Positions 24,075 to 31,079 of a stretch of DNA of 41,730 nucleotides are shown piece by piece. The notes beneath the pieces are model-generated. The model saw nothing but the letters and a program-made list of their open reading frames with translations, was not told where the DNA came from and searched no databases. The position numbers were made by a program, and so were the translations under genes. Positions within the stretch are counted from its first letter, which is position 1. Every line of letters starts with the position of its first letter. This stretch comes from an uncultured Candidatus Marinamargulisbacteria bacterium (lineage in GTDB: Bacteria; Margulisbacteria; Riflemargulisbacteria; GWF2-35-9): the NCBI GenBank assembly GCA_903897765.1, contig CAIUCY010000169.1, forward strand, positions 1 to 41,730, in the 5' to 3' direction.

Positions 24075-24605
24075 TCAATTATGAAATGATGATGAAGAAA
24101 TTCCCTTTACCCGATACCGAATAACCGTTTTTTGGTTTTTGACATCGGGCATAGTGAGATATTCTTCTTCGTGGTCATCGACTATGTCATAGCCCTGCTC
24201 TTGGATGAAATGATGAAGTTTCGTAATAGTGGGGCCTTCTTCCGAGTAGGGGCCAAGGTGCAAGATCTCAGCTGCCGCGCCACCCGTCAACGTCGTCAGT
24301 TTTACTCGGATATCAGGATCTTTTTGGATAATGTCCGCGTCAGTGACATAGTCAGGGACAACAACGAACCAATGAGCCGTCCATTGGTCTTTGGGTTTTA
24401 AATGGGCGTCTGGCCAGAAGGCTGATAATTTGCCAATAGGCATAACCATGCCTTTGGGTTTATATACCTTCATCTTCGCATAATAAGCCGCGCCATAAAG
24501 GGCTTTCATATAAGGTTCCATGATGACGTTGGGATCCCCGATGGACGTCACACATAATACTTTTCTGTCAGGAAGTTGGGTTAATTGGGGGGCAAAGGCT
24601 TTCAT
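24075..24605 (-). CDS. GyrI-like small-molecule-binding domain protein
   Basis: Pattern LPDRKVLCVTSIGDP..., LTGGAAAEILHLGPY, HEEEYLTMPDVKNQKTVIRYRVK resembles GyrI-like/SOUL-fold proteins. The ORF is open up to 24773, but the homologous part begins at MKAF (24605). Start uncertain. Confidence 0.6.
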   Translation of the reverse strand: MKAFAPQLTQLPDRKVLCVTSIGDPNVIMEPYMKALYGAAYYAKMKVYKPKGMVMPIGKLSAFWPDAHLKPKDQWTAHWFVVVPDYVTDADIIQKDPDIRVKLTTLTGGAAAEILHLGPYSEEGPTITKLHHFIQEQGYDIVDDHEEEYLTMPDVKNQKTVIRYRVKGISSSSFHN

Positions 24606-24631
24606 GTCACATATTATATTCCCTTCATTAA

Positions 24632-25312
24632 ATGCGCTACAATACCCCCATGATCCTTTACCATGCGCTCTGGCAGATCCTAACGTGGGGTAGGGAGGCA
24701 TTATTTGCCTTACTGCGACCCCGATATTGGCGTTTGTTTTTGGCGTTCCAGTTCGAGTACTTTTTGCATTCATCCTATTACTATGTGGACAAAAATCCCG
24801 AAGAAAATGATGTCTTTGGGTATACCCCCTTTTTTACGGCGGCTCAAATATTGAGGAAGATCCAACGCTGGCAGGGGCGATCTTTACTGGGTGAGCGGTT
24901 GCTCGATCTGGGTAGCGGGGATGGCCGCTTTCTGCTAACAGGGGTGGCAGGGTTTGGGTTGGTAGGGCTGGGGATGGAGCAAAACGAACGACTCGTCGCG
25001 AAAAGCCAAGCGATCACCCATTATTTGCAGATCAAGGCCGAGTTTTTTGATGATGATTTTATGAAAGGGTCGTGGATCGGCTATGAGGTCATTTTTGTCG
25101 CATGGACGACCTTTACGCCCTCGAGAGTAAAGGCGATCACCGACAAGGCCGTCGAGGAGATGGTGCCTGGGTCTTGGCTAGTCACGCTTTCAGAGCCGGC
25201 GCAGTACGAGGGGCTGACGGTCATTGATTCGTTTTCGGCTTGGTTCTCATGGGGCATGAGTCGGGTTTACCTGCATCGACGCTATTGTTGTGAATTGCAA
25301 TCAGATATATAG
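24632..25312 (+). CDS. Class I SAM-dependent methyltransferase
   Basis: Motif I is LLDLGSGDGRFLL. The 3' end (last 25 codons or so) forms the left part of repeat copy A. Confidence 0.7.
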   Translation: MRYNTPMILYHALWQILTWGREALFALLRPRYWRLFLAFQFEYFLHSSYYYVDKNPEENDVFGYTPFFTAAQILRKIQRWQGRSLLGERLLDLGSGDGRFLLTGVAGFGLVGLGMEQNERLVAKSQAITHYLQIKAEFFDDDFMKGSWIGYEVIFVAWTTFTPSRVKAITDKAVEEMVPGSWLVTLSEPAQYEGLTVIDSFSAWFSWGMSRVYLHRRYCCELQSDI

Positions 25313-25326
25313 CTATATTTACCATG
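25232..25326 (+). repeat. att-like repeat, copy A (full length; 3' end of the methyltransferase gene plus spacer plus the hicB ATG)
   Basis: 82 of 94 ungapped positions are identical to copy D by hand alignment (25233-25326 vs 29399-29492). Contains the palindrome CTCATG-GGG-CATGAG at 25246-25260. Confidence 0.85.
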
Positions 25327-25506
25327 ACGCAGACTTATTCGGTGCTAATTGAACGTGATGAGGATGGCTTATTTGTGGCCAAGGTGCCCGATATTCCCGG
25401 ATGTTTTTCTCAAGCTTCAAATCTTAACGATTTGATCCCTCGTATTCGAGAGGCGATAGAACTGTGTTGCCATCATGATATCGAAGTATTCCTGAAGAAT
25501 ATTTAA
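25324..25506 (+). CDS. hicB: HicB-family antitoxin-like protein (UPF0150 N-terminal domain only, probably truncated)
   Basis: YSVLIERDEDGLFVAKVPDIPGCFSQASNLNDLIPRIREAIELC matches the HicB/UPF0150 fold signature. No hicA partner is visible. Confidence 0.7.
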   Translation: MTQTYSVLIERDEDGLFVAKVPDIPGCFSQASNLNDLIPRIREAIELCCHHDIEVFLKNI

Positions 25507-25510
25507 ATCA

Positions 25511-25548
25511 TTTTCGGTATGGTTCTCCTGTGGCCTGAGCCGAGTTTA
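25511..25548 (+). repeat. att-like repeat, copy B (left 38 nt only, diverged)
   Basis: TTTTCGGTATGGTTCTCCTGTGGCCTGAGCCGAGTTTA vs copy A TTTTCGGCTTGGTTCTCATGGGGCATGAGTCGGGTTTA (31 of 38 identical). Starts 5 nt after the hicB stop. Confidence 0.7.
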
Positions 25549-25615
25549 ATCAGTTGATTACAACGTTTACTTTGTCTTACGTTGTGGTATGCTTTTACAT
25601 AAGTGGAGGTGTATT

Positions 25616-25849
25616 ATGAAAAATCATAGCATCACGGTTCGTATTAATGAGACCAATTACAGTCAACTTAAAAACTTAGCGGAGTCAATGGAGCGGTCAA
25701 AGTCTTTTATAATGGAAGATGCCTTAATAAACTATATGGAAGTTAATGCGTGGCAAATTAATCACATAAAGAAAGCTTTGGCGGAGGCGGACGATCCAAA
25801 CACTCCAAGATATACACAGGAAGAAATAGAACGGGACGCTTTAGCTTAA
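25616..25849 (+). CDS. parD: Ribbon-helix-helix antitoxin (ParD/CopG family)
   Basis: MKNHSITVRINETNYSQLKNLAE is an RHH N-terminus. GGAGG lies 6 nt upstream of the ATG. Immediately followed by the parE-like gene. Confidence 0.75.
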   Translation: MKNHSITVRINETNYSQLKNLAESMERSKSFIMEDALINYMEVNAWQINHIKKALAEADDPNTPRYTQEEIERDALA

Positions 25850-25851
25850 TC

Positions 25852-26160
25852 ATGAATATCATATGGCTTAGGTCGGCGAGAGAAGACCTCTTGGCTATTA
25901 AAAGCTTCATCGAAAAAGAAAGTAATATTGAGAACGCTAGGGGGGTATCTCTTAAAATCTCCAAAGCGGCGATGTTGCTACAAGATAGCCCCGGTGCTGG
26001 ACGTCCTGGTCGCGTCAAAAGAACACGAGAGCTTGTCGTGCCCAGTATTCCTTATATCATTGCTTACCGTGTTGTGGGCTCAAGCCTCGAGGTCCTCAGC
26101 ATTTTTCATCAGGCCAGAAAGTGGCCGAATTTGTTTAAAGAAAAGGGGCAGGGGGCATGA
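25852..26160 (+). CDS. parE: Type II toxin, ParE/RelE family
   Basis: WLRSAREDLLAIKSFI..., GRPGRVKRTRELVV..PYIIAYRV....LEVLSIFHQARKWP is a typical ParE pattern. The stop codon lies inside repeat copy C. Confidence 0.8.
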   Translation: MNIIWLRSAREDLLAIKSFIEKESNIENARGVSLKISKAAMLLQDSPGAGRPGRVKRTRELVVPSIPYIIAYRVVGSSLEVLSIFHQARKWPNLFKEKGQGA

Positions 26161-26198
26161 GCAGGGTTTGCGATCATCGGCGTAATTGTCGTTAATTC
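26152..26198 (+). repeat. att-like repeat, copy C (central and right part, diverged)
   Basis: GGGGCATGAGCAGGGTTTGCGATCATCGGCGTAATTGTCGTTAATTC aligns with copy D GGGGCATGAGCAGGGGTTTCGTGCATCGACGCTATTGTCGTGAATTC. Overlaps the parE stop codon. Confidence 0.7.
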
Positions 26199-26202
26199 AA
26201 GT

Positions 26203-27534
26203 CTATGGTTTGTTTGTAAAGCCTAAAAAGGTTCCCTGCTTCGCTTCACTAATGGCTTTTTTGAGAATTTTATGTTCTGCTGAATCAACTTGTACATATT
26301 CTTTGAACCATTCCAATATTTGAAGAATATCACTATTAAAAATAGTGTTGAGTTGGTTAATAAATCCAAAGGTGCGGATCTCGGAATATTCCTTTCGTAT
26401 TGCGGTTGTCTCTGATGTTCTCAATCGATCTTGTTTTTCAGTTTCAGCATCAAGAATGGCTTGTGCCACTTGGATTAAAAGTGGGTTGTTCTCATTATTA
26501 CCATCTAGCAGGGAATATCCCTGATTATCACATACTATTGACTTCTCCGTTTGGATTGACTGAATGGTTCTAATAATGGTTTTAACCATTTGCTTTTGGA
26601 TTTGTGTGGACGTCATTTTCACTACATCCATAATTTCTTTAGCGGCTTCGGGGAGATGTTCTTCGGGGATATTTTTAAAAAGTCCCCAAACAACGTCAAA
26701 GGCATCTTTTTGAATAGAGTTGCCATCCTTGGTCAGCATTGCTTCAACGATTCCGCCAATGACAGCAGTTGTTGTTTCTCCTTTTGCGCTAATGGCAGGA
26801 TAATTCCCCTTAATTCGTTGCAAATATTTTGTTAGGACATTAAATATGGGATCTGCTATATCTGAACGTTCGGATGCCGTACAAAATGATAGCATGTTCT
26901 GAGAAAAAGTATAGAAAGATGGGTAGTCTTTGTTTGTATCTGTTGAAGAACCGATGTTATCGAAGGATATTGAGTCTAATGTGTCATTGCGTTCTTCAAC
27001 TGGCGTGGAAAGTAGGGCAATCGTCGCAATGAGGGGAAGGTTTTCTTTTTTTCCAGTAAAATCTTGACGTTCACTAGTAATTAATCCAGTTGCAAAACCT
27101 GGAAAATTGAATTTGGATTTATCCGTAACCGGCATAAATTCCTTTTGCGCCTCAATGGCGGCTTTACATACATCTATTGCGGTTGAAATAGCTGTATCTA
27201 ATGGGGTATTATCTGTTCTAGTTTTTTCAAGAATAACATGGACAGAAGTAGAGACGACCATATCAATGACAGAAGCTAATAAAGGTTTTTTGGGACTGGG
27301 AATATTCACTTCATTTACAATCTTAGCAATCTCAATAAAAACATCTTTATAATATTTTTTTGGATTTTCGAGAAGAATGTTTGCAAAGCCGATGCAAGTT
27401 GGTCTAGCCAAAGCTATACTGTTTTGATCAATCTTGGGGTATCCATCACCAAATTGAACTGCACGAACCTTTATTATTAATGCCTGTAGTATCTTGTCAG
27501 TTTCATCCATACTCAGAATCTTCTTATTCATCAT
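26203..27534 (-). CDS. Hypothetical protein (443 aa), no recognisable domain
   Basis: Long ORF with AGGAGG just upstream (the second ATG at 27531 has better spacing). AT-rich. Sits inside the TA/Abi island and is divergent from abiEi. Confidence 0.65.
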   Translation of the reverse strand: MMNKKILSMDETDKILQALIIKVRAVQFGDGYPKIDQNSIALARPTCIGFANILLENPKKYYKDVFIEIAKIVNEVNIPSPKKPLLASVIDMVVSTSVHVILEKTRTDNTPLDTAISTAIDVCKAAIEAQKEFMPVTDKSKFNFPGFATGLITSERQDFTGKKENLPLIATIALLSTPVEERNDTLDSISFDNIGSSTDTNKDYPSFYTFSQNMLSFCTASERSDIADPIFNVLTKYLQRIKGNYPAISAKGETTTAVIGGIVEAMLTKDGNSIQKDAFDVVWGLFKNIPEEHLPEAAKEIMDVVKMTSTQIQKQMVKTIIRTIQSIQTEKSIVCDNQGYSLLDGNNENNPLLIQVAQAILDAETEKQDRLRTSETTAIRKEYSEIRTFGFINQLNTIFNSDILQILEWFKEYVQVDSAEHKILKKAISEAKQGTFLGFTNKP

Positions 27535-27644
27535 AACCTCCTAGTTTGTTTTGCTACCACGAATTCATCGTCCGCAATTTTCGTAAATCCCACGCAAAAC
27601 CACCCATGGATTCTGTTGCTTTGTTTGCCAAGGACGGTGCCCAT

Positions 27645-27653
27645 GGGGGGGGG
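27645..27653 (+). repeat. G9 homopolymer in the divergent intergenic region between orf443 and abiEi
   Basis: Counted directly (CCCATGGGGGGGGGCTAG). It lies 111 nt from the orf443 start and 116 nt from the abiEi start. Confidence 0.9.
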
Positions 27654-27768
27654 CTAGCTTTATATACGTTCAGCGGTCGAAGTATAGTTGAGTTTTAAAG
27701 TGTATTGCAAAAGTAAATGTTTTTATTTACCATATTAGTGGAAGTTAAAACATGAGAGCAGGAACAAC

Positions 27769-28476
27769 GTGTTAATTCTTGATAATCAATATGAGGTTTT
27801 CTTTTTTGAGTATTTCAAAAAACAGGGATATTCAAAACAGCAAATGTATCAATTTGTAAAACATAACAAATTTAATAAAAAAGCCTATGGTATATATACC
27901 CTTAAAGGTCAGAATCCTGAACCATTAAGTTATATCGAAGCCTATGAAAGGCAATGCAATAAGCGTGTATATGTTGGGGCATTAAGTGCTTTGCGTTTAC
28001 ACGGTGTTTCCCAAAATATTCCATTTAATACGCGTTACCAGATTTATTATAACGAACAACGAATCAATCGGTGGTTGCTCGATCAAAAAGACTATATATG
28101 GACACGAAACAACTTGTTTAATTCGTCTGTTGGAATAACAAAAAAAAACAATCTGAGCCTATCCTCGCCGGAAAGAGCGATCCTAGAAGCGATATCCCTA
28201 TTGCCGAAACAAGGGGATTTTGAAGAGGTTTATCATACACTGCTTCTGCTGCCATCACTGCGGCCCCAACTATTAATGGACTTGATTTGCGAATGTAAGT
28301 CCATCAAAACAAAACGGTTATTTTTATATATGCTCAAACATGTAAATTTTACGTGGAAATCGAAGCTTGATTTATCAAAAGTTGATATTGGGAAAGGCAT
28401 TCGTCAACTATACCCAGAGGGTAAACTTGATCCCGATTATCACCTCTATGTGCCAGAAATTCATGATGAAGTATAG
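27769..28476 (+). CDS. abiEi: AbiEi-family antitoxin (type IV TA / abortive infection)
   Basis: N-terminal wHTH-like segment ending in KKAYGIYTL, and SPERAILEAISLLP, as in AbiEi proteins. Overlaps the abiEii start. GTG start is uncertain. Confidence 0.7.
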   Translation: MLILDNQYEVFFFEYFKKQGYSKQQMYQFVKHNKFNKKAYGIYTLKGQNPEPLSYIEAYERQCNKRVYVGALSALRLHGVSQNIPFNTRYQIYYNEQRINRWLLDQKDYIWTRNNLFNSSVGITKKNNLSLSSPERAILEAISLLPKQGDFEEVYHTLLLLPSLRPQLLMDLICECKSIKTKRLFLYMLKHVNFTWKSKLDLSKVDIGKGIRQLYPEGKLDPDYHLYVPEIHDEV

Positions 28477-29371
28477 CGAGACCTATCAACGCAAAGTATC
28501 CTTGCTCATAGACATATTGTCACTCATCGACTGGGGTTCTGGATTTGCCTTAAAAGGCGGAACGGCAATCAATCTATTCATCAAGAATTTGCCGCGATTA
28601 TCAGTAGATATTGACCTCGCTTTTTTGCCTTTTATTGATCGACAACAAGATTTGATAAAGATTGAGAGCTTGTTTCTCCAACTCGCTAAGCGACTAAAAG
28701 AGGCGGGTCTGTCAGGAATCCCTCATCTTAATAATGGAACAAAAACCATTACGAGCATGTTGGTCAATAATCGATTTGAGCAAATAAATGTCGAAGCTAA
28801 TTTTATTGCAAAAGGTGCCTTGTTGCCGCCTCAATTATTATCATTATGTGCTTCAGCTGAAAGCGAATTTGAAAAACAATCAGAGGTATTGTGTCTCAAT
28901 AAACAAGAAGTCTATGCTGGAAAAATGAATGCGTTTCTTTCTCGGCAGCATCCACGTGATATATTTGACATGATGGAGTATATCAAAGAACAATCTATTG
29001 CGGACATAATGGATGTCGTTATGATTTATATCCTACAGAACAACCGGCCTTTTCATGAATTAATAAATCCTAACGAAATCGATATTTCTGACGCTTATCA
29101 GCACTCCTTTGCAGGTATGACGCGTGAGACTGTTTCCCTAAATAATTTGCTTGAAGCGCGAACAATGATCCTATCACAGTTCAAAAACAATGTTTCTGCA
29201 AAGCATATCGAATTCTTTATCTCCTGTTTGCGCGGTAACCCCCAATGGAATGCATTCAATTTTGAAATTAAAACGCTGCCTGGGGTTGTATGGAGAATGC
29301 TCAATATTGAGAAAATGCCAAGGCATAAAAATGAAGAAGAAATTGAGCTACTGCTTAAACTCGTGCCCTGA
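28463..29371 (+). CDS. abiEii: Nucleotidyltransferase AbiEii/AbiGii-family toxin
   Basis: ALKGGTAINLF...LPRLSVDIDLAF is the AbiEii NTase signature. I prefer the ATG at 28463 (14-nt overlap with abiEi) over the ORF-track start at 28367. Confidence 0.8.
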   Translation: MMKYSETYQRKVSLLIDILSLIDWGSGFALKGGTAINLFIKNLPRLSVDIDLAFLPFIDRQQDLIKIESLFLQLAKRLKEAGLSGIPHLNNGTKTITSMLVNNRFEQINVEANFIAKGALLPPQLLSLCASAESEFEKQSEVLCLNKQEVYAGKMNAFLSRQHPRDIFDMMEYIKEQSIADIMDVVMIYILQNNRPFHELINPNEIDISDAYQHSFAGMTRETVSLNNLLEARTMILSQFKNNVSAKHIEFFISCLRGNPQWNAFNFEIKTLPGVVWRMLNIEKMPRHKNEEEIELLLKLVP

Positions 29372-29398
29372 TTTTGTGGCCGGTTCGTGGATCGACTA

Positions 29399-29492
29399 TT
29401 TCGGCATGGTTCTCATGGGGCATGAGCAGGGGTTTCGTGCATCGACGCTATTGTCGTGAATTCCACTCAGATATATAGTTATATCTACTATG
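29399..29492 (+). repeat. att-like repeat, copy D (full length, non-coding pseudo-copy of the methyltransferase 3' end, ending at the recN ATG)
   Basis: See copy A. Palindrome at 29412-29426. The recN ATG occupies the position that the hicB ATG occupies after copy A. Confidence 0.85.
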
Positions 29493-31079
29493 CTGCATCG
29501 CCTTGATATTGGGAATTATCTCCTCATCGAAAAGACCACGATCCAATTCCAAGAGGGGTTCCATGTTTTGATCGGTGAATCGGGGGCAGGGAAAAGCCTG
29601 ATCGTTAACATCTTGTGTCTTCCGTTTGCCAAAAGTGTGGGGCCTGAGGTGATCGGCCGATGGGGTGCCGAGGCCGCTATTCATGTTGAGTTCGATGATG
29701 ATCAAGGCGCTCACTATCTCGATATTCGGATCACCAAGTCAAGGACTAACTTTGTCCTCGATGACGAGGCCATTTTGCCCAAAGTCTTGAGAGACTATTG
29801 GAAAACGATTTTCGATGTACATTCTCAAAACGATTTTGACCTGCTTCGTGGAGACCAGTTGAGGGTTCTCGATCGCTTTATGACCAACGATGAAGCCATG
29901 GTCAAAGTCGCTTACGATGAGGCATTCGAGTCGTTTCGAAGTTTAGATGAGAAGATATCAGACCTAAAAAAGAAGATACTTAACACCATGGAACGTGAGT
30001 ATTATGGTTTCCAACTAAAAGAGCTTATGGGCGCCGCTTTAGTCTTGGGGGAGGATGATGACTGTTTGGCTAGGCTTCGTTTAGGTCGCGATCATGAGAA
30101 GTTCCAAACCAAAATAGATGCTGTGAAAGTAAAGATGGACGATCTTTCAGATGCGATCACCGCGGCTGAGATGGCATGGGATAGCCTTAAAAGGATGGAC
30201 GAAGATCTAGGTGGCGCGGACTATTTTAAGATGATGATCCAAGCCTCATCTGACGCAACATGGGATTTAGCCAAGCGTTATGATTCGGTCGAGATCCCCG
30301 ATGCGCGTGAGCTTGCGATCATCGAAGCTCGATTAGAGTTCCTAGACGACCTCAAGCGAAAATATAAACGTTTGTTGCCGGAGTTGATACAGTATCGAGA
30401 TGAGCTTTCTCTTCAACTTAATCGGCAAGAAGAATATGAATTCGATCTCCATACTCTCGTTGTCGAGAAAACCCAAAAAGAAGCGAACCTACTTTCGATC
30501 GCAATAAAACTGACAGATGTGCGCCAGTCTGTTGCCAAACGTTTAGTGAGTCAACTTCAACAATATATGGCAGGGTTAAAATTGCCTAAGGCGGAGTTTG
30601 TCCCTTCGTTTCAAACAAAAGACAGACCCGATGCGTCTGGGCTTGATCGTTTTGAGTTTTTGGTTCGAGTAAATGTTGGAAGTGCTTTCCATGCCATTAC
30701 ACGTTTGTCGGGGGGTGAAACCTCGCGTATTATGCTTGCGATCAAAGCGGCCTTGATGGATGCCTCGGCGATACGGACCTATTGTTTTGATGAAATTGAT
30801 GTTGGGGTGAGTGGTGATGTGGCAACACGTATGGCCGAATTGATGGCTAAAATATCCAAAAAGAGACAGGTCATCGCGGTGACACATCTTCCTATGGTAG
30901 CGGCTTTAGCCGATCATCTCTACAGTGTCGAAAAGTCCTTTACGGACTCACAGACCTCCTCTTCTGTTCGTATGATCCGCTTGGCTTCAGACCGAGAAAA
31001 TGTTTTGGGACGACTGTTGTCTGATCAGCCCAATGAGGCGACTACAGAGTTTGTTCGATCCCTAAAAGATCACGCCTGA
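29490..31079 (+). CDS. recN: DNA repair protein RecN
   Basis: MLHRLDIGNYLLIEK..., Walker A GESGAGKS, long coiled coil, signature LSGGETSRIMLA, Walker B YCFDEIDVG. Confidence 0.9.
   Translation: MLHRLDIGNYLLIEKTTIQFQEGFHVLIGESGAGKSLIVNILCLPFAKSVGPEVIGRWGAEAAIHVEFDDDQGAHYLDIRITKSRTNFVLDDEAILPKVLRDYWKTIFDVHSQNDFDLLRGDQLRVLDRFMTNDEAMVKVAYDEAFESFRSLDEKISDLKKKILNTMEREYYGFQLKELMGAALVLGEDDDCLARLRLGRDHEKFQTKIDAVKVKMDDLSDAITAAEMAWDSLKRMDEDLGGADYFKMMIQASSDATWDLAKRYDSVEIPDARELAIIEARLEFLDDLKRKYKRLLPELIQYRDELSLQLNRQEEYEFDLHTLVVEKTQKEANLLSIAIKLTDVRQSVAKRLVSQLQQYMAGLKLPKAEFVPSFQTKDRPDASGLDRFEFLVRVNVGSAFHAITRLSGGETSRIMLAIKAALMDASAIRTYCFDEIDVGVSGDVATRMAELMAKISKKRQVIAVTHLPMVAALADHLYSVEKSFTDSQTSSSVRMIRLASDRENVLGRLLSDQPNEATTEFVRSLKDHA

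What the first reader, a model, noticed from the sequence alone, without database searches (positions are those of the whole stretch)
26203..27534. Orphan 443-aa protein inside the TA/Abi island, divergent from abiEi: candidate novel defence or addiction component
This is the largest gene of the repeat-bounded island, and I can recognise no domain or catalytic motif in it. It has no P-loop, no HEPN Rx4-6H, no nuclease or protease signature and no TM segment. It is AT-rich like its neighbours. It shares a 234-nt divergent control region with the abiEi-abiEii operon, and that region contains a G9 tract. Genes embedded among toxin-antitoxin and abortive-infection modules are frequently defence-related (guilt by association). 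That is established as a heuristic, not as proof.
Basis: inference. Interest (0 to 1): 0.6.

Follow-up and report, generated by a model that had tools for sequence, protein, structure and literature searches.

The report
Genus-restricted orphan helical protein in TA hotspot
The 443-codon gene is real, but it is a lineage-restricted, all-helical orphan protein that sits in a recombination hotspot next to interchangeable toxin-antitoxin modules; it is not a partner of AbiE, so a defence role stays an untested guess.

Summary
The ORF at 26203..27534 (-) is real. It has a GGAGG ribosome-binding site, and P(no stop by chance) is about 2e-14.

An exhaustive search of 1.84 billion representatives found one credible homologue, P0004 (278 aa, 25% identity). 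It lies at the same chromosomal site in a sister lineage, but divergent from BrnT/BrnA, not AbiE. A third genome of the genus (G001, source of locus L009) keeps only about the first 10 codons of the gene plus the upstream element, again next to BrnTA.

The site lies between an MTase-like gene and recN. In all other genera of the order it holds nadK. In this genus nadK is gone and variable cargo sits there.

The orphan has its own ~95-nt upstream element, as conserved as the housekeeping flanks, while the ORF bodies do not align at DNA level. The 234-nt "shared control region" is therefore a composite of two modules.

AlphaFold models are poor (pLDDT 45 and 52) and all-helical. Foldseek gives only generic helical-repeat hits.

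Verdict: an autonomous, dispensable, allele-swapped accessory gene, probably a non-enzymatic binding protein. A defence role is possible (~25-30%) but unsupported beyond context. The scan also noted the island's repeat structure separately.

The parts
26203..27534 (-). orf443: orphan protein of 443 aa (442 aa from the second ATG at 27531), acidic (pI 5.35), soluble, predicted all-helical. This is allele type A of a two-member family.
   Evidence: single copy in its own genome; homologue P0004
27537..27541 (-). GGAGG ribosome-binding site of orf443, 5 nt upstream of the second ATG
   Evidence: read directly; the same RBS and first 18 nt of the ORF are kept in the L009 stub
27546..27636 (.). Conserved ~95-nt intergenic element next to the orphan's start. 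It has a 39-nt three-way invariant core containing an imperfect inverted repeat (AATCC...GGATT). It is probably the orphan's promoter or leader, and it is the homology block around which the flanking modules are exchanged.
   Evidence: no Rfam family; no covariation support with 3 sequences
27645..27653 (.). G9 tract at the junction between the conserved element and the AbiE-side sequence; present only in the window, absent from L008 and L009
27654..27768 (+). Window-specific half of the intergenic region, a presumed abiE promoter/operator with the inverted repeat GTAAAT-N6-ATTTAC at 27713-27730. It is not homologous to the BrnTA-side sequence of L008 or L009.
   Evidence: that AbiEi autoregulates through promoter inverted repeats is from the literature (PMC7319586), not tested here
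27769..29371 (+). abiEi (27769-28476) and abiEii (ORF from 28367; the profile match starts at residue 37, so the real start is probably near the abiEi stop). A complete AbiE pair, and a neighbour of orf443 rather than a partner.
26149..26203 (+). Repeat copy r3 (a degenerate copy of the 3' end of the MTase-like gene), abutting the orphan's stop codon. It corresponds to the native MTase 3' end that abuts P0004 in L008.
29399..29497 (+). Repeat copy r4 (99 nt, 86% identical to r1 at 25233-25331), running into the recN start codon; the right-hand boundary of the island
25233..25331 (+). Repeat copy r1 (3' end of the MTase-like gene plus spacer plus ATG); the left-hand boundary of the island
25324..26160 (+). 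Other cargo to the left of the orphan: a HicB fragment (25324-25506), repeat copy r2 (25512-25547), and an RHH antitoxin (25589-25849) with a ParE toxin (25852-26160) that is convergent with orf443

Best explanation
orf443 is a genuine, genus-restricted accessory gene. It forms its own monocistronic unit together with a conserved ~95-nt upstream element.

The unit sits in a recombination hotspot between an MTase-like gene and recN. Related genera carry nadK at that site. Around the conserved element, the modules on both sides are exchanged independently:
- the orphan body occurs as type A (443 aa), as type B (278 aa, 25% identity), or deleted;
- the adjacent TA pair is AbiE in one genome and BrnTA in the other two.

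The protein is a soluble, acidic, all-helical protein without any catalytic motif. It probably has a solenoid-like architecture. It most likely acts by binding a partner, either a protein or a nucleic acid, rather than by catalysis. It is not a component of AbiE.

Shown:
- the gene is real;
- it is an orphan;
- its homologue occupies the same chromosomal site;
- it assorts independently of AbiE;
- it is dispensable;
- its alleles have been replaced by recombination.

Inferred:
- a binding or scaffold mode of action;
- a conflict-type role (defence, counter-defence or MGE maintenance). I put that at only 25-30%.
For: **Real gene.** It has 443 open codons at 0.069 stops per codon, an RBS, and a homologue with conserved hydrophobic patterning (pairwise E 4e-12).

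**Orphan.** There are no family hits. Among 1.84 billion representatives only P0004 is credible. The two-sequence profile finds nothing more in 5.8 billion clusters or in 146 genomes of the phylum. Plasmids and phages give no match.

**Same site, different partner.**
- L008: MTase-like | P0004(-) | conserved element | BrnT-BrnA | recN-cheW-cheA.
- L009: MTase-like | HEPN-MNT pair | repeat copy | 10-codon type-A stub | conserved element | decapitated BrnT-BrnA | recN.

**Hotspot.** All ten loci from the other genera of the order carry nadK directly after the MTase-like gene, and recN follows it wherever the fetched stretch reaches.

**Allele replacement rather than drift.**
- Flanking proteins are 86-89% identical between the window and L008, against 25% for the orphan.
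- L008 and L009 are 96% identical in RecN, yet carry type B and a type-A stub respectively.
- BLASTN aligns the flanks and 27543-27636 but nothing inside the ORF.

**Dispensable.** The body of the gene is deleted in G001 (source of L009), which is 97% complete.

**Non-enzymatic helical protein.** No catalytic motifs were found. Both AF2 models are all-helical, with 18 and 14 helices. Foldseek's top hits are helical-repeat proteins.

**Foreign composition.** GC3 is 0.31, against 0.39-0.61 in host genes.
Against: - No positive functional evidence of any kind was obtained.
- The AF2 models are of low confidence (pLDDT 45 and 52), and the Foldseek TM-scores of 0.2-0.3 carry no fold information.
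- No internal sequence repeats rise above shuffled controls, so 'solenoid' is only a guess.
- With only two full family members, purifying selection cannot be measured.
- The conserved element is no more conserved than the best quarter of the flanking coding DNA. Selection on it is therefore plausible, not proven.
- The allele type of the L009 stub rests on about 31 nt plus the RBS.
Confidence: 0.5

Rival explanations
1. orf443 is a stand-alone anti-phage or anti-MGE defence protein (or a counter-defence or immunity protein). Its extreme allelic divergence would then reflect negative frequency-dependent selection.
For: It sits in a TA/Abi-rich variable hotspot between core genes. Highly divergent alleles have been swapped between close relatives. 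Its composition is foreign. It is dispensable. These are typical traits of defence-island cargo (established heuristic, own knowledge).
Against: There is no PADLOC hit. It has no nuclease, NTPase, protease, TIR, SIR2 or membrane effector module, whereas most single-gene defence proteins carry an effector domain. The family has only two members in 15 billion proteins, and only guilt by association speaks for the role. No phage-related genes lie nearby.
Confidence: 0.27
2. orf443 is a third component (regulator, chaperone or addiction factor) of the adjacent AbiE system, co-regulated with it through the shared divergent promoter region.
For: It is divergently arranged with abiEi-abiEii, 234 nt apart. 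It has a similar low GC. Both genes lie between repeat copies r3 and r4.
Against: AbiE is a self-sufficient bicistronic system (PMC3985639). The only homologue and the stub both sit next to BrnTA, not AbiE. The intergenic region is a composite, and only the orphan-side half is conserved. The closest AbiEii relative found (52% identity, L030) lies at a contig end and gives no context.
Confidence: 0.05
3. orf443 is a lineage-specific protein with a non-conflict cellular role (for example structural or regulatory) that merely resides in a recombination-prone locus.
For: It is a helical binding-type protein with no toxin or effector features. It is retained as a long intact ORF in two lineages. 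It has its own conserved upstream element.
Against: It is deleted without replacement in G001. Protein identity is 25% between genomes whose core proteins are 86-89% identical. Its composition is foreign. The size differs strongly between alleles, 443 against 278 aa.
Confidence: 0.2
4. orf443 is a functionless or decaying relic of a mobile element, for example the replication initiator of an integrated small plasmid whose origin was the conserved element and whose addiction modules were the TA pairs.
For: It combines TA modules with one large AT-rich orphan gene and an adjacent conserved non-coding block. Direct repeats of 99 nt flank the insert, as a Campbell-type integration would leave. The gene is already deleted in one genome. 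A C-terminal frameshift variant exists in another assembly.
Against: There is no Rep-family or other match in Pfam, NCBIfam or PHROGs, nor in 72,556 plasmids or 50,697 phages. No iteron-like repeats rise above chance in the element (P=0.38). It is predicted all-helical, with no winged-helix strands. A 443-codon ORF intact in 37% GC DNA argues for ongoing selection.
Confidence: 0.1

Closest known systems
Variable cargo genes of defence/TA islands at integration hotspots between core genes
   Same: It lies between two conserved core genes (MTase-like and recN), with different cargo in each related genome. Neighbours are TA and Abi modules. Its composition is foreign, and it shows presence/absence and allele replacement.
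   Different: No recognisable defence domain or PADLOC model matches. No integrase lies on the contig. Exchange appears to pivot on a conserved ~95-nt non-coding block and on copies of the MTase 3' end rather than on a classical att/tRNA site.
AbiE type IV toxin-antitoxin / abortive infection system (AbiEi + AbiEii; PMC3985639)
   Same: It is physically adjacent to, and divergently oriented from, a complete AbiE pair.
   Different: AbiE is bicistronic and self-sufficient. orf443 matches neither component, and its homologue pairs with BrnTA instead.
Alpha-solenoid (ARM/HEAT/TPR-like) binding proteins, including helical antidote proteins such as Wolbachia CinA/CifA
   Same: It is predicted all-helical, with regular 12-20-residue helices and short loops, and has no catalytic motif. 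Foldseek's top hits are helical-repeat proteins, and CinA appears for P0004.
   Different: All matches are non-significant (TM 0.2-0.3; ARM profile E 0.18). There is no detectable internal repeat and model confidence is low. This is a resemblance only, not membership.
Chromosomal integron-like cassette arrays carrying TA modules
   Same: Short cargo modules are separated by copies of one repeat, with newer modules apparently added at the MTase-proximal end and the oldest, most degenerate copy (r3) next to the orphan.
   Different: No intI lies nearby. The repeat is a copy of the 3' end of a host gene rather than an attC hairpin family, and it occurs nowhere else in the genome. The orphan is in the opposite orientation and has its own upstream element.

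Membership tests
AbiE system (as a third component) | Protein matches an AbiEi (wHTH antitoxin) or AbiEii (DUF1814 nucleotidyltransferase) profile | tested here: not met
   Pfam and PADLOC give no AbiE hit for orf443, while its neighbours hit at 1.7e-50 and 4.6e-84
AbiE system (as a third component) | Consistent co-occurrence with abiEi-abiEii in other genomes | tested here: not met
   The only homologue (L008) and the stub (L009) are next to BrnT/BrnA
Known anti-phage defence systems (PADLOC-DB v2) | Match to any of the 5027 defence protein models | tested here: not met
   0 families at E<=1
Type II toxin or antitoxin | Small protein in a two-gene operon with a cognate partner; match to a toxin or antitoxin family | tested here: not met
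   It is 443 aa and monocistronic, convergent with parE and divergent from abiEi; no family match
Alpha-solenoid repeat proteins (ARM/HEAT/TPR) | Tandem helical-hairpin repeats detectable by sequence profile or by a confident structure | tested here: inconclusive
   It is 68% helix with 18 helices, but pLDDT is 45. Foldseek helical-repeat hits have TM 0.2-0.3. Designed ARM proteins score E 0.18. Self-similarity is not above shuffles.
Plasmid replication initiator with adjacent origin | Rep-family profile match, homologues on plasmids, and iterons in the adjacent non-coding DNA | tested here: not met
   No profile hit; no tblastn hit in plasmids or phages; k-mer repetition in the element is not above chance (P=0.38)
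Hotspot (defence/TA island) cargo | Located between conserved core genes whose intervening content differs among related genomes | tested here: met
   The order is MTase-like -> nadK -> recN in the other genera. Three different cargo sets occur in the three genomes of this genus.
Integron gene cassette | attC recombination site with its characteristic imperfect hairpin, and an IntI integrase with attI | not tested
   Repeat-bounded modules exist. No tyrosine recombinase lies on the window's contig; four lie elsewhere in the genome. The attC structure was not modelled.

The most novel reading that the evidence does not exclude
The P0001/P0004 family is a new, effector-less (binding-only) defence or counter-defence protein confined to one Marinamargulisbacteria genus. 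It would be kept as deeply divergent alleles by frequency-dependent selection, and the alleles would be exchanged by homologous recombination that uses the conserved ~95-nt leader and the MTase 3'-end copies as portable homology arms.
Probability: 0.15. Interest if true: 0.6.

Novelty: new variant of a known kind. Interest (0 to 1): 0.3.

Why it matters
As it stands, this is an ordinary case: an ORFan in an accessory patch of an uncultured bacterium, with no handle on its function.

The gene is not an AbiE accessory. It is an independent unit in a hotspot where the TA modules and the orphan's alleles are shuffled around a conserved non-coding pivot.

If the family were shown to act in phage or MGE conflict, it would be a defence protein without any known effector domain. 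The locus would then be a compact example of module exchange by short homology arms, without a resident recombinase.

The by-product may matter more. Both genomes of the genus lack a detectable NAD kinase, at the very site the island now occupies.

Tried and rejected
1. **Family libraries.** Pfam, NCBIfam, PADLOC and PHROGs gave nothing significant for P0001 or P0004.
2. **Sequence searches.**
   - The word-index searches, by single sequence and by profile, gave only a self-hit and P0004.
   - The exhaustive phmmer search added P0003 (E 1e-9). That match comes only from a 22-residue tandem repeat, and P0003 sits on a 1.4-kb contig with no context, so I rejected it as a family member.
3. **PDB sequence search with the profile.** Only designed ARM proteins, at E 0.18.
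4. **Structure.** Two AlphaFold jobs gave pLDDT 45 and 52. Two Foldseek PDB searches gave generic helical-repeat hits at TM 0.2-0.3. A CinA hit at E 0.08 is not significant.
5. **Genome searches.** Six-frame searches of 60 relatives and of 146 genomes of the phylum found nothing.
6. **The conserved element.**
   - No Rfam family and no tRNA or tmRNA.
   - No copies in the metagenome or viral collections.
   - RNAalifold on both strands gave no compensatory pairs with 3 sequences.
   - Iteron or operator repetition is not above chance.
   - A minus-strand uORF (MGGFAWDLRKL...) was rejected as coding: it has 4 non-synonymous changes against 1 synonymous, plus a frameshift in L008 (read).
   - Its conservation was calibrated against the coding flanks. 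It falls in the upper quartile and is not exceptional.
7. **The orphan as the ancestral gap gene.** Rejected, because the gap gene in the other genera is nadK, on the other strand.
8. **The orphan as a nadK substitute.** Rejected, because G001 lacks both.
9. **Context of the nearest AbiEii relative.** It lies at a contig end and is uninformative.

Full report
**Observation.** The ORF at 26203..27534 on the minus strand is real and encodes 443 aa.
- A GGAGG box lies 2 nt from the first ATG and 5 nt from the second, so the second ATG (27531) is the likelier start. An independent gene call in another assembly (P0002) uses it.
- With 0.069 stop codons expected per codon in this composition, 443 open codons have a chance probability of about 2e-14.
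  - Pfam, NCBIfam, PADLOC and PHROGs give nothing significant;
  - there is no Walker A, Rx4-6H, HxH, DxD or CxxC motif;
  - pI is 5.35;
  - the most hydrophobic 19-mer (KD 1.77, residues 84-102) contains Asp and His and is not a convincing TM segment;
  - GC is 0.369 and GC3 0.31, against 0.42-0.51 and 0.39-0.61 in host genes.
- The neighbours are as described: an AbiEi/AbiEii pair, an RHH/ParE pair and a HicB fragment.
- The 234-nt spacer and its G9 run are present.

**How rare the protein is.**
- A word-index search of 5.8 billion clusters returned only a self-hit.
- An exhaustive phmmer search of 1.84 billion representatives returned two further proteins.
- P0003 (E 1e-9) matches only through a 22-residue tandem repeat and sits on a 1.4-kb contig, so I do not count it.
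- P0004 (278 aa) aligns over 179 residues at 25% identity (pairwise E 4e-12). It shares the N-terminus (MNNKLVSM against MNKKILSM) and a well-conserved block, IP..HL.EA...IM...K....QIQ..M..TII.T..SIQ. It is a true homologue.
- A profile of the two sequences finds nothing more: not in the 5.8-billion-cluster collection, not in PDB sequences (best E 0.18, designed armadillo proteins), and not in six-frame searches of 60 relatives and 146 genomes of the phylum.
- Plasmid and phage records have no match.
- The gene is single-copy in its own genome.

**Context in related genomes.** This part changes the interpretation.
- *L008.* P0004 is encoded on a 12-kb contig at the same chromosomal place. The order is MTase-like gene, P0004 on the opposite strand, an intergenic block, BrnT-BrnA, then recN-cheW-cheA.
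- *L009.* Searching for the intergenic block recovered a third locus, from a Candidatus Marinamargulisbacteria MAG that is the same-genus genome G001. Its order is as follows:
  - the MTase-like gene;
  - a HEPN/MNT-type pair;
  - a partial repeat copy;
  - a stub of the orphan, with the same RBS and the same first 18 nt as the window, reading MMNKKIIAMDGLKGTP*;
  - the same intergenic block;
  - a decapitated BrnT fused to BrnA;
  - recN.
- *Combinations.* The three genomes carry type A + AbiE (window), a type-A stub + BrnTA (L009) and type B + BrnTA (L008). The orphan therefore assorts independently of AbiE, and it is dispensable.
- *Literature.* AbiE is described as a self-sufficient bicistronic system (PMC3985639).

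**The locus is a hotspot.**
- In ten loci from the seven other genera of the order, nadK (266-281 aa, GGDGT motif) follows the MTase-like gene on the same strand. In nine of them recN starts about 800 nt after the MTase-like gene, and in the tenth a recN-like ORF follows nadK directly. In this genus nadK is absent from the site.
- The cargo is bounded by copies of the MTase 3' end. The copies are r1 (25233-25331), r2 (25512-25547), r3 (26149-26203) and r4 (29399-29497). The repeat occurs nowhere else in the genome.
- Copy r3 abuts the orphan's stop codon, just as the native MTase 3' end abuts P0004 in L008. The HicB' and RHH-ParE modules were therefore probably added later on the MTase side.
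- No recombinase lies on this contig; four tyrosine recombinases lie elsewhere in the genome.
- The scan's own notes list this repeat structure as a separate finding. I confirmed the repeat copies but did not pursue their mechanism.

**Allele replacement, not drift.**
- Between the window and L008, the flanking proteins are 86-89% identical and the flanking DNA 80-85% identical. The orphans are 25% identical, and BLASTN aligns nothing inside the ORFs.
- L008 and L009 are 96% identical in RecN, yet carry type B and a type-A stub.
- Homology resumes 14-17 nt upstream of the start codons, in a ~95-nt block (window 27546-27636).
- That block is 89% identical (gapped) between the window and L008, and 82% of its aligned positions are invariant across the three genomes. 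It has a 39-nt invariant core holding an imperfect inverted repeat.
- Calibrated against the 4.5 kb of flanking coding alignment, this places the block in the upper quartile of 95-nt windows, where the longest invariant runs are 57 and 35 nt. It is as conserved as good coding sequence, not exceptionally so.
- The block has none of the following:
  - an Rfam match;
  - a tRNA;
  - compensatory base pairs, although only three sequences were available;
  - motif repetition above chance.
- To its right, the window's G9 tract and the remaining 115 nt up to abiEi have no counterpart in L008 or L009.
- The 'shared divergent control region' is therefore a composite: an orphan-side conserved element joined to an AbiE-side promoter region.

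**What the protein may be.**
- AlphaFold with the two-sequence alignment gives low-confidence models: pLDDT 44.9 for P0001 and 51.7 for P0004, reaching 60-73 in the conserved C-terminal block of P0004. Both are entirely helical, with 18 and 14 helices of mostly 9-24 residues.
- Foldseek against the PDB returns only designed or natural helical-repeat proteins at TM 0.2-0.3. The Wolbachia antidote CinA appears for P0004 at E 0.08, which is not significant.
- No internal sequence repeat exceeds shuffled controls.
- The defensible statement is this: it is a soluble, acidic, all-alpha protein with no catalytic signature. It is therefore more likely a binding or scaffold protein than an enzyme.

**Mechanism and rivals.**
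- *Best reading (0.5 as a package).* orf443 is an autonomous, monocistronic accessory gene with its own conserved leader or promoter. It is carried as cargo of a hotspot and acts by binding.
- *Conflict role.* A role in defence, counter-defence or MGE maintenance is suggested only by context and by the allele-swap pattern. I put it at 25-30%.
- *AbiE third component.* Essentially refuted (0.05).
- *Non-conflict lineage-specific role.* About 0.2.
- *Decaying mobile-element relic, for example a plasmid Rep.* About 0.1. Against it are the absence of Rep, plasmid or iteron signals and the intact long ORF.

**Limits.** With two family members, selection cannot be quantified.

**By-product.**
- NadK is not detectable in either genome of the genus (G000 is 82% complete, G001 97%).
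- Four searches failed to find it: a sister-genus NadK protein, PF01513, PF20143, and a seven-sequence NadK profile.
- The same family and profile searches score 1e-29 to 1e-135 in four sister genera. The single PF01513 hit in G000 is a 6-phosphofructokinase.

Noticed in passing
window 25313-29489 (the site) and whole genomes G000 and G001: NAD kinase (nadK) sits between the MTase-like gene and recN in all other genera of the order. It is missing from that site in this genus. It is also undetectable anywhere in G000 (82% complete) or G001 (97% complete), whether searched by protein, by two Pfam families or by a 7-sequence profile. The same family and profile searches score 1e-29 to 1e-135 in sister genera. 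The only PF01513 hit in G000 is a phosphofructokinase. Loss of a near-universal essential enzyme would be remarkable if it is real.
   Followed up: partly
window 27546-27636; L008 9885-9984 (-); L009 1951-2047: This ~95-nt non-coding element, with a 39-nt three-way invariant core (CAAAGCAACAGAATCCATGGGTGGTTTTGCGTGGGATTT on the minus strand), is conserved between genomes whose flanking cargo on both sides is non-homologous. It has no Rfam family, and it occurs only in this genus.
   Followed up: partly
window about 26226-26230: Another assembly of the same population (P0002, sample ERZ1426847) ends ...EAKQEPF* instead of ...EAKQGTFLGFTNKP*. That is consistent with a one-base length difference in a short G run near the 3' end, so the last ~8 residues are unconstrained.
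   Followed up: partly
window 27645-27653: The G9 tract lies exactly at the junction between the conserved orphan-side element and the window-specific AbiE-side sequence. It is absent from L008 and L009. It may be a junction scar or part of the incoming AbiE module rather than a conserved switch.
   Followed up: partly
L009 1084-1798 and 2017-2448: The sister genome carries a HEPN (NTase_sub_bind) / MNT nucleotidyltransferase pair inserted next to the MTase-like gene, and a BrnT reduced to about 20 codons and fused in frame to an intact BrnA. The toxin is lost and the antitoxin kept.
   Followed up: yes
window 29399-29492 versus L009 993-1086: Repeat copy r4, just upstream of recN, is more similar to the sister genome's native MTase 3' end (89%) than the window's own MTase 3' end region is overall (83%). 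This hints at which copy is ancestral.
   Followed up: no
window 24075-24773 (-) and 24632-25312 (+): The GyrI-like ORF and the MTase-like ORF overlap by about 140 nt on opposite strands as listed. The true start of one of them is probably further downstream.
   Followed up: no
window 28367-28476: The longest abiEii ORF overlaps abiEi by 110 nt. The PADLOC and Pfam matches begin at residues 37-46, so the real start is probably one of the Met codons near the abiEi stop.
   Followed up: no
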